A stretch of 64,000 nt of DNA, taken from the NCBI RefSeq assembly GCF_001677475.2, contig NZ_CP015229.1. One strand, given 5' to 3'. The DNA is from Escherichia coli (lineage in GTDB: Bacteria > Pseudomonadota > Gammaproteobacteria > Enterobacterales > Enterobacteriaceae). Made by a program: the position numbers. Below, piece after piece: positions 57,601-60,600 of the stretch; the stretch's first letter is position 1, and the number at the start of each line of letters is the position of its first letter.

Positions 57601-60600
57601 CCAGAGAACGGGCTTCGTCGTCGGAAAGCGTGAGTAAATTCATGCGCCAGCGGAGAAAAAACAGGGGCAAGGAGCCTATGAGAATGATCGGTGCAGCATA
57701 GCAGAGATCGCGTAAGGTCACGGTGGACAGTCCCCCCAGCAACCAGAAGGTAATTGACGGTAACTGGGTGTAAGGATCGGCCAGCGTTTTAATTAGCGAT
57801 ATCCCCGCTCCGCACAACGTTCCTAACGCAATGCCTACCAGCACCAGGGTTAAGATCGGATCGTGGCGGGTCACCCGACGCGTAATCAACCAGACGCCCG
57901 CGACCACCATCAGCCCGCCGCAAAATGCGTACAGCTGGATGTAAACAATGGATAATCCCCACAGGATTGCCGCGCAGGCACCAAGTCCGGCACCGGCGGA
58001 GACGCCTAAAATATCCGGTGAAACTAAGGGATTACGCAACATTCCCTGATAGGTGGTTCCGGCTCCTGCCAGCGCCGCGCCCAGTAACAGCGCAGCAAGA
58101 ATACGCGGCACGCGGATTTGCCAGAAGACAATTTGTTCCTGCACAGACACATTTTCTTGACGAAGAATTAGCGCCAGCAGTTGCTGCATATCGAGATGAT
58201 AAGCCCCACTTACGGCGGCAAAAGTGATACTGATAGCTGCCAGCAACAAAATACATCCGTTTACGATTCTCATTAGCTCGCCACCAATTTTTGATAGTCG
58301 GCATCACTGAGTGAACAATGCCAGAACAGTTGGGCGTAATGCTGCATGTCATTTTTAAACTGGCGATTGATGGCGGGCTCCAGCCAGGCGTGAAGTCTAC
58401 GTAATCCCAGAAGACGGTTGATTCCCGGCGGGGCATCCAGCCAGCCAAAGGGCAAGCCACTTAAAAATAAGATGCGTTGTTCCGCAACGGCTTTCACGCC
58501 CTGCCAGAGAGGATCACGACGAATAAAATCTGCAGTAACGGCCTCCTGAACCAGAATAATATCCGGCTGCCAGCGCAGGAGATTTTCCATGGAAACCTGT
58601 GTCAGGCCGTGGCGATCGGCTATTTGCGCGACGTTGTGCAAACCTAATAATTCCGCCGCCTCGGTATGCAACGAACCCTGTAAGCCCGTTTCCAGCCCTC
58701 GGGGACCGCGCGCAGCATAAAAGCGCAGGTTAGCGGCGGGTGAGGTGGCGAATGCCTGAGCTTCACCAACGAAGTGGCTGGCGAGATTGGCTTGTTCTGC
58801 GGCGCGGTGCTCTTCGCCTAACGTTTTGCCAAGCGTTGTTAACTGTTCTGCTGATTGCGCCAGTTTTCCGTTAAGCAATAACCAGGGGATTTGTGTCTGT
58901 TCGCTAACCTGCCGTGCCTGGGAGATCCAGGTTTCATCCGTATTGCCGCAATCAACGACCAAATCGGGATGTAACGCCATAAGCCCTTCCAGCGAGAGTG
59001 TGCTGGCGCGCCCGGCGAGTCGTCCCAGCCTGGGTAACTGGCGAATGTGCTCTGGCAATGGAATTAATGCCTGACGGGCAAAATCAAAAGAGGAAAAACC
59101 GACCATTTTTTCTGGCGCGACAGCCAGCAATAGCAAATCGGCGGGCGCGCCTGCGCTGACGATGCGTGTAATGTTTTGGGCTTCGGGAAGAGATTGCGAA
59201 GCAAAACGATTAACTGTTTGTGAAAAGGACGGTAGAGACTGCAGGAGCAGGGTAGATGCTAGTGCCTGCGCAAACGTCCGTCTGGTTATGGGCATGGTGA
59301 ACATCCTGAAAAGCAAAATCGATATATACTTGCATATATAGCGATAAAAATCATGTTCAATATCAAAGTTTAGCTATTGAAAACATGAAGATGTGACGAC
59401 TTCCGCAAGCCTGTTGACTCTCTCTATCATTAAAAATGTATTTATCAGGTGGCTAATATTATTTAAATCATTTAAGGCTAAATTATTTAAATATGAATGA
59501 CATTATTGTTTTTTTATCGTCCGCGGTTATGCGATGTTGAAGTTACTTGTTTTATAATGAGCGATTTTTGATATCTCACCGAGAAGATTATCAGCATTCT
59601 CTCGTTTCAGTGTCGTGAATATACTGTTACCGGAGGTAAAAAGAATGCTGGGGGTTATACAAAACCTATGTTGTTGTCGTCCGGACTCACCGCTTGCTGA
59701 TAGTAAGCAGCGTAACCAGAAGTTACCGCAACAAGACTTTGAGGATTTTAAGAACGACGTTATTAACGTCATTAACAACAATGAAAACATTTATTTTCTT
59801 CGAGAGGATAATTTACTGAATGCGTTTATTCGAACGTGCAAAAAAACAGATGATAACAGTTACAGAAATATGATATTTACGCTTTATTTTGATAACGACA
59901 TCTATGGAAACAGGATTATCAAAGCATCGCTGAACGGTGGAGAGTTGCAGTCATTAAGCACAGGGTGTAGCAATGATAACATTCTCCATTTTATTAATGC
60001 ATTTCTCATTCGGGTAAAATTTCCTCTACCTGGACGCATAAAACCGGAACTCTCGCCAAAAGCCGGGCACTCCGAAGGAATTGACGCGTTGCGCTGCTCT
60101 GTAACGGCGTTAACGCAAGCCATTTATTTCGCCAGCGACAATCCGCAGAGAACCAAACGCATCAGGAAACGACTGAGCACAATAAATACTGTATTGATCA
60201 ACATATTATACTGACACCTCCAGCACGCAGTGAGAACACACTGTATCATCAGCGAATCTTACCACTGCGGATCTGGTTGAACGACTTTCTGAGCGAAATA
60301 AGTCGGTTCCCGGCAACAACAACAGAATCCTTTTTTAATTATTGTTTCATTGTTTTTGGTGTTGTTCAGAAAATAAATATTTTAGATAGTAGCCAGTCAG
60401 AGGTTAAAAAGGGGGCTAATAGTGAGACGGCTTTGGCTGCGCTTATTGAACATTTAGAATTGCTCAATCCTTCTGACAGATTAAGCCCAAATACCCGTTT
60501 GGCAATGCTTCAGTTACGCGAAGAGGAATGGTCTGAATTCTTTTATTGGTTGCTAAATTCTCTGGAGTGCCTGGATTATGTGATCATTAATTTAACTCCA

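What the first reader, a model, noticed from the sequence alone, without database searches (positions are those of the whole stretch)
58273..59316. Twin-arginine-like motif on the island's substrate-binding protein
The N-terminus contains TRRTFAQALAST, resembling the S/T-R-R-x-F-L-K Tat consensus. This would imply export of a folded, possibly ligand- or cofactor-loaded binding protein.
Basis: partly seen in the sequence, partly recalled or inferred. Interest (0 to 1): 0.3.

Follow-up and report, generated by a model that had tools for sequence, protein, structure and literature searches.

The report
Probable Tat signal on Mo-regulated binding protein
The binding protein of this E. coli uptake operon starts with a conserved twin-arginine export signal, so it is probably exported already folded, as the iron-binding protein FhuD is predicted to be; the operon, labelled "iron uptake" in the literature, looks molybdenum-regulated instead.

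Summary
The gene (true CDS 59295..58273, minus strand, 340 aa) encodes MPITRRTFAQALASTLLLQSLPSFS|QTV. Every possible start codon lies upstream of the RR.

RR occurs in 82 of 91 distinct N-termini of close homologues, from Escherichia to Shewanella. It is encoded by different codons, while the rest of the signal diverges. RR-type signals in the family are weakly hydrophobic (1.91), like 25 E. coli Tat signals (1.81). Homologues without RR are Sec-like (2.87).

I judge a Tat-type signal likely (about 0.65) but unproven:
- This allele (RRTFA) fails TatP's default pattern.
- It lacks a c-region positive charge.
- It is short and scores at the low end of known Tat signals.
- No dedicated predictor could be run.

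Nothing supports cofactor loading. Distant homologues use Sec or lipoprotein signals, and no Cys or His column is conserved.

E. coli FhuD, also predicted to be Tat-exported, is a precedent, so this is a new member of a known kind.

Context is the more interesting result. This is the known prrA-modD-yc73-fepC "iron uptake" cluster. It has no Fur box. It carries a perfect ModE-type operator conserved across genera, and its permease is closest to MolB of the H. influenzae molybdate importer. Relatives have modE or mop genes alongside.

The parts
58273..59295 (-). Gene for the periplasmic substrate-binding protein (340-aa precursor; Peripla_BP_2, class III fold). It is the first gene of the operon.
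   Evidence: ORF. Pfam PF01497, E 1e-16. RefSeq orthologue is 1023 nt. The exact sequence is present in E. coli records. AlphaFold model pLDDT 92.7. Best solved structure 4pag, TM 0.79.
59221..59295 (-). Predicted signal peptide, residues 1-25. The n-region is MPITRR, the h-region TFAQALASTLLLQSL and the c-region PSFS. Inferred signal peptidase I cut is S-F-S|Q.
   Evidence: Sequence. Helix at residues 5-18, then a lower-confidence linker (block-mean pLDDT 65-76 over residues 11-30) before the fold begins at about residue 30. Orthologues have SFA|Q, AFA|Q or ALA|Q at the same place. The cleavage site is inferred, not predicted by a tool.
59266..59286 (-). Twin-arginine motif T-R-R-T-F-A-Q (residues 4-10). 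The RR codons AGA CGG lie at 59283-59278.
   Evidence: Conserved as [TS]-R-R-x-[FL]-[LAIT] in homologues.
59304..59307 (-). Shine-Dalgarno-like AGGA, 8 nt upstream of the ATG at 59295.
   Evidence: Read from the sequence. The same 'caggat' is seen in E. coli L001 and Citrobacter L003.
59320..59343 (.). ModE-type operator palindrome CGCTATATA-TGCAAG-TATATATCG, 24 nt upstream of the start codon. The extended palindrome spans 59318-59345.
   Evidence: It is the only match in the 64-kb window, with 0 mismatches. It has the same architecture as the K-12 modA operator CGTTATATT-GTCGCC-TACATAACG. It is conserved in front of the orthologous gene in E. coli, Citrobacter, Shewanella, Serratia and two metagenomic loci.
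57293..58273 (-). FecCD-family permease, closest to MolB (HI1471).
   Evidence: Pfam PF01032, E 1.6e-88. Best PDB sequence match is HI1471 at 3.4e-63; the next is FhuB at 8e-50.
56538..57296 (-). ABC ATPase, the 'fepC' of the literature name.
   Evidence: Pfam ABC_tran. NCBIfam hits. Orthologue is 759 nt.
55716..56528 (-). Class I SAM-dependent methyltransferase ('yc73'). It is present in all six orthologous operons examined.
   Evidence: Operon contexts.
54865..55719 (-). ModD, a quinolinate phosphoribosyltransferase-like protein.
   Evidence: TIGR01334 modD, E 1.8e-151. Best PDB matches are QPRTases at 6e-20.
52869..54839 (-). TonB-dependent outer-membrane receptor ('prrA'). Its signal peptide MRLKKRYLCTALSLAFTQQAVA is of the ordinary Sec type.
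   Evidence: Plug and beta-barrel Pfam domains. Orthologue is 1971 nt. N-terminus.

Best explanation
The 340-aa precursor carries a 25-residue twin-arginine (Tat-type) signal peptide.

Proposed mechanism, with what is shown and what is inferred:
- After translation the binding protein folds in the cytoplasm (inferred).
- The T-R-R-T-F motif at the border of the n- and h-regions is recognised by the TatBC receptor (inferred).
- The weak hydrophobicity of the h-region keeps the precursor from being taken efficiently by Sec (inferred).
- The folded protein crosses the inner membrane through TatA, driven by the proton-motive force (inferred from established knowledge of the pathway).
- Signal peptidase I cuts after S-F-S25 (inferred).
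- The mature protein of about 315 aa is an ordinary class III periplasmic binding protein (shown by model and family match). It receives the ligand let in by the TonB-dependent receptor and docks on a MolB-like type II ABC importer (inferred).

The operon is most likely repressed by ModE-molybdate through a perfect operator in front of this gene. It therefore most likely serves molybdate or tungstate (or a Mo/W complex) acquisition rather than iron uptake. The Tat signal is a clade-conserved targeting choice, as predicted for FhuD. It is not a sign of cofactor loading.
For: Start and motif position:
- The start is fixed upstream of the RR.
- T at -1 and F at +2 match S/T-R-R-x-F-L-K.
- The N-terminus resembles the well-studied SufI signal MSLSRRQFIQAS.
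- 9 of the 25 listed E. coli Tat signals also have their RR at residues 3-6.

Conservation:
- RR is essentially invariant, in 82 of 91 distinct N-termini; only one KK and one RK pattern match were found. PMC5539426 reports that even R-to-K changes are poorly tolerated by Tat.
- Arginine codons differ between genera.
- The h-region sequence diverges freely.

Hydrophobicity (best 10-residue Kyte-Doolittle mean):
- This signal scores 1.56; the 25 E. coli Tat signals average 1.81 +/- 0.32.
- Within the family, 95 RR-type signals average 1.91 and 27 signals without RR average 2.87 (Mann-Whitney p = 2e-12).

Motif context: a Tat-trained matrix gives 4.9 bits. That is inside the leave-one-out range of true Tat signals (-2.6 to 19.0) and far above other RR sites.

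Precedent: FhuD, which I know to be a binding protein of the same Pfam family, is listed as a predicted E. coli Tat substrate.

Operon context.
Against: - The allele reads RR-T-F-A. The A at +3 fails TatP's default pattern, which covers 97% of that tool's training set.
- There is no basic 'Sec-avoidance' residue in the c-region. The common E. coli allele has HH and Citrobacter has RH at that place.
- The signal is 25 aa long, shorter than all 25 reference signals (26-53 aa, mean 33).
- The matrix score is low; only 5 of 25 true signals score lower.
- Hydropathy does not discriminate cleanly. The Sec-type signal of the operon's own receptor scores 1.81.
- The Pfam and NCBIfam scans returned no Tat-signal family for the N-terminus. 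I did not confirm that a Tat-signal model (PF10518, TIGR01409) is in the library copies used, and HMMER's filters may drop such short matches.
- RR pairs also occur in genuine Sec signals, and many Tat signals can engage Sec. The TatP paper gives a 7% false-positive rate for the pattern alone on Gram-negative Sec proteins.
- Distant homologues use Sec or lipoprotein signals, so the fold is Sec-compatible in principle.
- No export experiment exists for this protein in the literature I could search.
Confidence: 0.65

Rival explanations
1. It is an ordinary Sec signal peptide. The two arginines merely supply the positive charge of the n-region, and the protein is exported unfolded through SecYEG.
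For: - RR pairs are compatible with Sec and occur in some Sec signals (PMC5539426).
- The TatP pattern alone gives 7% false positives on Gram-negative Sec proteins, and several B. subtilis RR proteins are Sec-exported.
- This allele fails the TatP pattern, is only 25 aa long and has no c-region charge.
- More distant homologues clearly use Sec or lipoprotein signals.
- The receptor's Sec signal has similar hydropathy, 1.81.
Against: - A purely electrostatic role would tolerate lysine. Yet 82 of 91 distinct N-termini keep RR, only one KK and one RK match were found, and the arginine codons vary.
- The F or L at +2 is conserved along with the RR.
- RR-type signals in the family are a full hydropathy unit below the signals without RR.
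- Homologues without RR have variable n-region charges such as KK, R and K-x-K.
Confidence: 0.2
2. It is a promiscuous signal. The peptide can engage both pathways, and the route taken depends on how fast the binding protein folds. The RRxFA form without a c-region charge, as in this allele, would lean more towards Sec than the canonical RRxFL orthologues do.
For: - PMC5539426 begins a statement that over half of E. coli Tat signal peptides show some further property; the passage I retrieved is cut off there. From my own knowledge it says they can engage Sec when fused to a Sec-compatible passenger. The same paper states that c-region charges serve to block Sec.
- The window allele lacks such a charge, while Citrobacter has RH.
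- The matrix score is intermediate at 4.9.
Against: - There is no direct evidence either way.
- The invariance of RR argues that Tat recognition is the selected function.
- The h-region hydropathy (1.56) is low even among Tat signals.
Confidence: 0.12
3. The RR region is not part of a signal at all. Translation would start downstream, as in the public gene calls of 323, 325 and 334 aa, or the gene would be a decaying pseudogene.
For: - Some database entries for close homologues start after the RR: P0053 and P0056 at 334 aa, P0272 at 325 aa, and P0012 and P0273 at 323 aa.
- Partial Shigella entries exist.
Against: - In this window no ATG, GTG or TTG follows the RR until codon 61, inside the conserved fold.
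- A truncated protein would have no signal peptide, although it is a periplasmic binding protein.
- An AGGA lies 8 nt upstream of the ATG at 59295.
- The M-x-x-T-R-R N-terminus is conserved at the protein level across genera.
- The ORF and all five downstream genes are full length compared with the orthologues.
Confidence: 0.02

Closest known systems
FhuD of E. coli (ferric hydroxamate binding protein)
   Same: FhuD is a periplasmic binding protein that I know to belong to the same Pfam family (Peripla_BP_2). It serves a FecCD-type ABC importer behind a TonB-dependent receptor. It is listed among predicted E. coli Tat substrates with the signal MSGLPLISRRRLLTAMALSPLLWQMNTAQA. Neither protein is known to carry a cofactor.
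   Different: - Sequence similarity is remote. FhuD did not appear among the sequence matches to solved structures.
- FhuD's signal is longer and passes the TatP pattern.
- FhuD is iron- and Fur-related (my knowledge), whereas this operon has a ModE-type operator and no Fur box.
SufI (FtsP) signal peptide, the standard model Tat signal
   Same: The opening is nearly the same: MSLSRRQFIQAS in SufI against MPITRRTFAQAL here and MSLTRRRFTQIL in the common E. coli allele. RR sits at residues 5-6, the n-region is short, and the lengths are 27 and 25 aa.
   Different: SufI has I at +3 and a lysine in its c-region (PLKASA). This allele has A at +3 and no c-region charge. SufI scores 19.0 on the matrix and this signal 4.9.
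MolBC-A (HI1470/HI1471/HI1472) molybdate/tungstate importer of Haemophilus influenzae
   Same: The permease's best match among solved structures is HI1471, at 3.4e-63, about 13 orders of magnitude better than FhuB, HmuU or BtuC. The binding protein matches MolA (HI1472) by sequence (4e-8, partial) and by fold (Foldseek 4e-15). The regulatory context is molybdenum-related.
   Different: - The binding protein is closer to an uncharacterised structural-genomics protein, 4pag, than to MolA.
- The oxyanion-binding residues were not compared.
- To my knowledge the H. influenzae system has no associated TonB-dependent receptor, ModD or methyltransferase.
- I could not check whether MolA has an RR signal.
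[quoted passage not shown]
   Same: This is the same locus. The gene content matches (receptor, ModD, methyltransferase, ATPase, plus two 'putative transport proteins') and so does the size (6382 bp reported, about 6.4 kb here).
   Different: The literature calls it a possible iron-uptake system. I found no Fur box above chance in seven promoters. I found a ModE-type operator instead. I found no paper that mentions Tat targeting or ModE control for it.
ModABC and its ModE-controlled operator
   Same: The operator has the same architecture and lies at a similar distance from the start codon, 20 nt in modA and 24 nt here.
   Different: I know ModA to belong to a different binding-protein fold family with a type I ABC importer. 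Its N-terminus MARKWLNLFAG has no RR. ModABC has no outer-membrane receptor.

Membership tests
Twin-arginine (Tat) signal peptide | Two consecutive arginines at the border of the n- and h-regions, within the first 35 residues or so | tested here: met
   RR at residues 5-6 of the 340-aa precursor. Conserved in 82 of 91 distinct homologous N-termini.
Twin-arginine (Tat) signal peptide | Extended consensus S/T-R-R-x-F-L-K, in practice TatP's default pattern RR.[FGAVML][LITMVF] | tested here: not met
   T-R-R-T-F-A-Q has T at -1 and F at +2, but A at +3 is outside the TatP set and Q replaces K. In the family, 74 homologues meet the pattern and 45 more, including this clade, have RRxFA-like forms.
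Twin-arginine (Tat) signal peptide | An h-region less hydrophobic than that of Sec signals | tested here: met
   Best 10-residue Kyte-Doolittle mean is 1.56. The 25 E. coli Tat signals average 1.81 +/- 0.32 and family members without RR average 2.87 +/- 0.48. Caveat: the receptor's Sec signal scores 1.81.
Twin-arginine (Tat) signal peptide | Basic residue in the c-region (Sec avoidance; frequent but not obligatory) | tested here: not met
   The c-region is QSLPSFS with no K, R or H. Orthologues have HH (common E. coli allele) or RH (Citrobacter).
Twin-arginine (Tat) signal peptide | Signal peptidase I site (small residues at -3 and -1) after the h-region | tested here: met
   S-F-S|Q at residues 23-25, aligned with SFA|Q, AFA|Q and ALA|Q in orthologues. 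Found by inspection only.
Twin-arginine (Tat) signal peptide | Match to a curated Tat-signal profile (Pfam PF10518, TIGR01409) or to a dedicated predictor | tested here: inconclusive
   hmmscan of the Pfam and NCBIfam libraries returned no Tat-signal family even at E up to 10. I did not confirm that these models are in the copies used, and such short matches may be dropped by the speed filters. TatP, SignalP and PRED-TAT were not available.
Twin-arginine (Tat) signal peptide | Export depends on TatABC and on the RR pair | not testable with these tools
   This needs fractionation or reporter fusions in tat and sec mutants.
Class III (Peripla_BP_2) periplasmic binding protein | Pfam PF01497 domain and a two-lobe fold joined by a long helix | tested here: met
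   PF01497, E 1e-16. Model pLDDT 92.7 with a long helix at residues 162-183. Foldseek TM 0.79 to 4pag, and matches to MolA, YiuA, CeuE, BtuF and heme-binding proteins.
MolBC-A-type molybdate/tungstate importer | Type II (FecCD/BtuC-like) permease most similar to MolB, with a MolA-like binding protein | tested here: inconclusive
   The permease's best PDB match is HI1471 at 3.4e-63. The binding protein matches MolA only weakly (4e-8 over about 80 residues; Foldseek 4e-15), behind 4pag. Oxyanion-binding residues and ligand were not tested.
ModE regulon | ModE operator (inverted repeat of the CGnTATAT type, as at modA) in the promoter | tested here: met
   A 0-mismatch palindrome at 59320-59343 is the only hit in 64 kb. 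The K-12 modA operator is recovered by the same pattern with 2 mismatches. The site is conserved in six orthologous loci, where chance expectation is 0-0.04 per locus. One locus encodes ModE inside the operon. The pattern itself came from my memory of the literature. Binding by ModE was not tested.
Fur-regulated iron-uptake operon (the literature's label) | Fur box in the promoter region | tested here: not met
   The best match to GATAATGATAATCATTATC is 10-13 of 19 in the window and six orthologous promoters, no better than shuffled sequence.

The most novel reading that the evidence does not exclude
The prrA-modD-yc73-fepC cluster is counted for 25 years as a putative iron-uptake, virulence-associated locus of pathogenic E. 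coli. It would in fact be a ModE-repressed, TonB-dependent acquisition system for molybdate, tungstate or a Mo/W chelate. It would be built on a MolBC-A-like importer whose binding protein is exported by Tat. This would be the first TonB-dependent molybdenum route described in enterobacteria. It would also give a testable context for the unknown functions of ModD and the always-linked methyltransferase.
Probability: 0.35. Interest if true: 0.65.

Novelty: new member of a known kind. Interest (0 to 1): 0.38.

Why it matters
On its own the Tat signal is a small annotation point.
- It fixes the correct start codon, which several public gene calls miss.
- It would add one strain-variable protein to the list of about 25-30 E. 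coli Tat substrates.
- It predicts that tat mutants lose this uptake system.

The surrounding evidence matters more. The locus is used as an "iron uptake" marker in comparative genomics of pathogenic E. coli. It carries a ModE operator rather than a Fur box and is related to the molybdate importer MolBC-A. If confirmed, this changes what the locus is thought to supply. Molybdenum feeds the Tat-exported molybdoenzymes of anaerobic respiration, which I recall matter in the inflamed gut and the urinary tract. It would also open ModD function to experiment.

Tried and rejected
- Curated Tat-signal profiles: Pfam and NCBIfam scans of the whole protein, the first 40 residues and a canonical orthologue returned no Tat-signal family, even at E up to 10. 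I treat this as uninformative, not negative. I did not confirm that the models are in the library copies, and short matches may be filtered out.
- Moco riboswitch or another known RNA in the leader: Rfam found nothing in 50000-64000.
- Fur box: none above chance.
- Sigma-70 promoter scan of 59250-59700: one weak hit far upstream, fewer than in shuffles. I therefore do not place the promoter.
- Literature:
  - I found no paper linking this cluster, or ModD with a TonB-dependent receptor, to ModE or Tat.
  - The paper I remembered for the ModE consensus (Studholme and Pau 2003) and the two original cluster papers (PMC108533, PMC88130) are not held.
  - The consensus was therefore checked against the K-12 modA operator read from the genome.
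  - The ExPEC Tat-substrate list does not include this protein. I do not know whether that strain carries the cluster.
- Cofactor loading: rejected for lack of any conserved Cys or His column and because homologues use Sec or lipoprotein signals.
- Tat signal tied specifically to the Mo-regulated subfamily: weakened. A Sec-type homologue (L009) also has a 3-mismatch operator-like site upstream.
- Downstream start: rejected.
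Full report
**1. What is at the coordinates**

The interval 58273..59316 is the longest ORF on the minus strand: 347 codons from a TTG.

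The protein is a periplasmic binding protein of the Peripla_BP_2 family (PF01497, E 1e-16). Exactly this sequence, in its 340-aa form, is on record from E. coli as "iron ABC transporter substrate-binding protein".

An AlphaFold model built on 100 homologues is confident (pLDDT 92.7). It shows a helix at residues 5-18, a lower-confidence linker, and the globular fold from about residue 30. The closest solved structures are:
- an uncharacterised Sulfurospirillum binding protein (4pag, TM 0.79);
- TM0189 and 4hn9;
- the molybdate-binding protein MolA of H. influenzae (3psa);
- YiuA.

**2. Where translation starts**

Three candidate starts exist: TTG 59316, ATG 59304 and ATG 59295. All lie upstream of the RR. 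The next ATG, GTG or TTG in frame is a TTG at codon 61 (59136), inside the conserved segment PADLLLL of the mature fold.

The ATG at 59295 is the best supported:
- It is preceded by AGGA at a distance of 8 nt.
- RefSeq annotates the E. coli orthologue at the equivalent position (1023 nt).
- Homologues from Escherichia, Citrobacter, Salmonella, Klebsiella, Serratia, Pectobacterium and Shewanella begin M-x-x-[TS]-R-R.

Some public gene calls of 323, 325 or 334 aa for close homologues do start after the RR. They would leave a periplasmic protein without a signal peptide, so I regard them as mis-calls.

**3. Is the motif more than chance?**

The pattern alone is weak evidence. The TatP paper reports that its default pattern RR.[FGAVML][LITMVF] also hits 7% of Gram-negative Sec proteins (PMC1182353). 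The comparative evidence is much stronger.

- Among 91 distinct N-terminal regions of the closer homologues, 82 have RR. One matched as KK, one as RK, and 7 had no basic-pair match; mis-called or truncated starts such as P0053 and P0056 are known to occur in this set.
- The residue at +2 is always F or L.
- The arginine codons differ between loci: AGA CGG, CGT CGC, CGT CGT, CGT AGA, AGA CGT. Selection therefore acts on the protein.
- The h-region sequence changes freely.

If the arginines merely supplied n-region charge, lysine would be expected often. For Tat signals, even R-to-K changes are poorly tolerated (PMC5539426).

**4. Signal-peptide properties**

I took 25 E. coli Tat signals from Table 2 of PMC7549933 as a reference set.
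- They are 26-53 aa long, mean 33.
- Nine have their RR at residues 3-6.
- Their best 10-residue Kyte-Doolittle mean is 1.81 +/- 0.32.

The window signal (25 aa, MPITRR / TFAQALASTLLLQSL / PSFS) scores 1.56.

Inside the family there is a clean split. The 95 distinct RR-type signals average 1.91 +/- 0.31. The 27 signals without RR, which are Sec-type or lipoprotein-type and mostly below 40% identity, average 2.87 +/- 0.48 (Mann-Whitney p = 1.8e-12).

A position matrix trained on the 25 signals gives these results:
- Leave-one-out scores of true signals: 10.9 +/- 5.6, range -2.6 to 19.0.
- The window signal: 4.9.
- Other RR sites in window ORFs: mean -14.4.

**5. What weakens the Tat reading**

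- This allele reads RR-T-F-A. The A at +3 is outside the TatP pattern, so TatP in default mode would report no motif. The common E. coli allele (RRRFT) and the Klebsiella, Serratia and Shewanella forms (RRxFL, RRxLI, RRxLM) do fit it.
- There is no basic residue in the c-region, whereas orthologues have HH or RH.
- The signal is shorter than any of the 25 references.
- The matrix score is in the lowest fifth of true signals.
- Hydropathy is not fully discriminating. The Sec signal of the operon's own receptor scores 1.81, while TreA scores 2.81.
- The Pfam and NCBIfam scans returned no Tat-signal family. I did not confirm that such models are in the copies used, and short matches may be filtered out.
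- RR is compatible with Sec. From my own knowledge, many Tat signals can also engage Sec.

I put the Tat reading at about 0.65, plain Sec at 0.2 and a dual-route signal at 0.12.

**6. Cofactor or ligand loading**

Nothing supports it.
- Homologues at 26-40% identity use Sec or lipoprotein signals.
- The nearly invariant columns of the 100-sequence alignment are G, P, L, Y, T, N, W, A and R. None is Cys or His.
- The fold is that of an ordinary class III binding protein.

The precedent is FhuD, which I know to belong to the same Pfam family. It is listed among predicted E. coli Tat substrates and has no known cofactor. Why such proteins use Tat is not known; fast or stable folding is the usual guess.

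**7. The operon**

All genes are on the minus strand and all are full length compared with orthologues:

| Gene | Coordinates |
|---|---|
| Binding protein | 59295-58273 |
| FecCD permease | 58273-57293 |
| ATPase | 57296-56538 |
| Class I SAM methyltransferase | 56528-55716 |
| ModD | 55719-54865 |
| TonB-dependent receptor | 54839-52869 |

The cluster lies between ymgE and treA and occurs in 2139 of 5426 complete E. coli genomes.

It is the prrA-modD-yc73-fepC cluster of the literature:
- S-loop#83/OI#55 in O157:H7, ECs1693-ECs1699 (PMC1890555);
- GR9, 6382 bp, in an avian pathogenic strain (PMC12928451).

Those papers describe it as possibly mediating iron uptake. They cite Guyer et al. 1998 and Ye and Xu 2001, which I could not read.

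**8. Regulation points to molybdenum, not iron**

A perfect palindrome, CGCTATATA-TGCAAG-TATATATCG, lies at 59320-59343, 24 nt upstream of the start codon. It is the only match in the 64-kb window (0 mismatches; expected 0.15).

The E. coli K-12 modA operator, read from the genome, is CGTTATATT-GTCGCC-TACATAACG, 20 nt upstream of modA. The same pattern recovers it with 2 mismatches. That this stretch is the ModE operator is from my knowledge of the literature.

The palindrome is conserved directly in front of the orthologous binding-protein gene in:
- E. coli (L001, 0 mismatches);
- Citrobacter (1 mismatch);
- Shewanella (0);
- Serratia (1);
- two further loci (3 and 1 mismatches).

A second copy lies in front of the receptor gene in four of these loci. 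Chance expectation is 0-0.04 per locus.

Further links to molybdenum:
- One metagenomic operon (L008) has a modE gene in place of modD (NF007957, E 2.8e-53, with Mop domains).
- Two more distant RR-type homologues are preceded by 68-aa TOBE/Mop genes.
- The permease's best solved relative is MolB (HI1471) of the H. influenzae molybdate/tungstate importer, at 3.4e-63 against 8e-50 for FhuB.

By contrast, the best Fur-box match in seven promoters is 10-13 of 19, no better than shuffles. No Moco riboswitch is present.

I conclude with moderate confidence (about 0.6) that the operon is ModE-controlled and serves Mo/W acquisition. The ligand and the roles of ModD and the methyltransferase remain unknown.

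**9. Relation between the two findings**

RR-type signals occur across the members with a molybdenum link (window, L003-L006, L008, L010, L011). One Sec-type homologue (L009) also has a 3-mismatch operator-like site upstream. Another (L012) shows only the three transporter genes. The Tat signal is therefore a conserved feature of a proteobacterial clade. It is not demonstrably required by the molybdenum function.

**10. Verdict**

- The Tat interpretation is plausible and comparatively well supported, but unproven, and the motif is slightly degenerate in this allele.
- The cofactor-loading idea is unsupported.

As a Tat-targeted class III binding protein it is a new member of a known kind. The more interesting result is the evidence that a locus long labelled "iron uptake" is a ModE-type, MolBC-A-like, TonB-dependent system.

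Noticed in passing
window 59318-59345: A perfect ModE-type operator palindrome lies in front of the operon, which the literature labels as iron uptake. No Fur box is present. The site is conserved across genera.
   Followed up: yes
window 59372-60298 (ORF 59615-60214, + strand, 199 aa): About 0.9 kb between the operon promoter and ycgY/treA has no megablast match in 5426 complete E. coli genomes. GC is low (0.37), and the 199-aa ORF has no Pfam match. In most E. coli genomes that carry the cluster, the similarity ends 76 nt upstream of the binding-protein start. In the one orthologous locus I inspected (L001), treA follows after 330 nt.
   Followed up: partly
L008:10622-11437 (also L010:784-990 and L011:2145-2351): In one metagenomic orthologous operon a modE gene sits where modD is in E. 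coli. Two more distant RR-type homologues are preceded by 68-aa TOBE/Mop (molbindin-like) genes.
   Followed up: partly
L004:11752-11775, L005:12491-12514, L006:11579-11602, L008:11519-11542: A second ModE-type palindrome lies directly upstream of the TonB-dependent receptor gene in Shewanella, Serratia and two other loci. In the window only 4 nt separate the end of modD from the start of the receptor ORF, so there is no room for such a site; in E. coli L001 the gap is 25 nt and in Citrobacter L003 23 nt, and no second site was found in either locus.
   Followed up: partly
window 55716-56528 and 54865-55719; loci L003-L006, L008: The class I SAM methyltransferase is present in every orthologous operon examined. 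ModD is absent in Shewanella fodinae and is replaced by modE in L008. No explanation was found for what a methyltransferase does in a metal-uptake operon. Its best family hits are weak: corrinoid-protein-associated and Mg-protoporphyrin methyltransferases.
   Followed up: no
database proteins P0012, P0053, P0056, P0272, P0273; L004:8001: Start-site annotation is inconsistent in public records. Versions of 323, 325 and 334 aa begin after the RR. One Shewanella call starts at a TTG five codons upstream of the likely ATG (MDVTRR).
   Followed up: partly
database proteins P0010, P0086, P0092, P0011, P0020: Some records show the binding protein fused to a QPRTase, FecCD or trehalase domain, or truncated (partial Shigella flexneri entries). 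This suggests frameshifts, deletions or decay of the locus in some strains.
   Followed up: no
L009:522-545: A homologue with a Sec-type signal (P0141, about 35% identity) also has a 3-mismatch ModE-like palindrome 54 nt upstream of its gene. The molybdenum link may therefore extend beyond the RR-type clade.
   Followed up: no
window 56538-57434: The longest ORF for the ATPase (298 aa from a GTG at 57434) overlaps the permease gene by about 140 nt. The orthologue-supported start is 57296, which gives the usual 4-nt ATGA overlap.
   Followed up: partly
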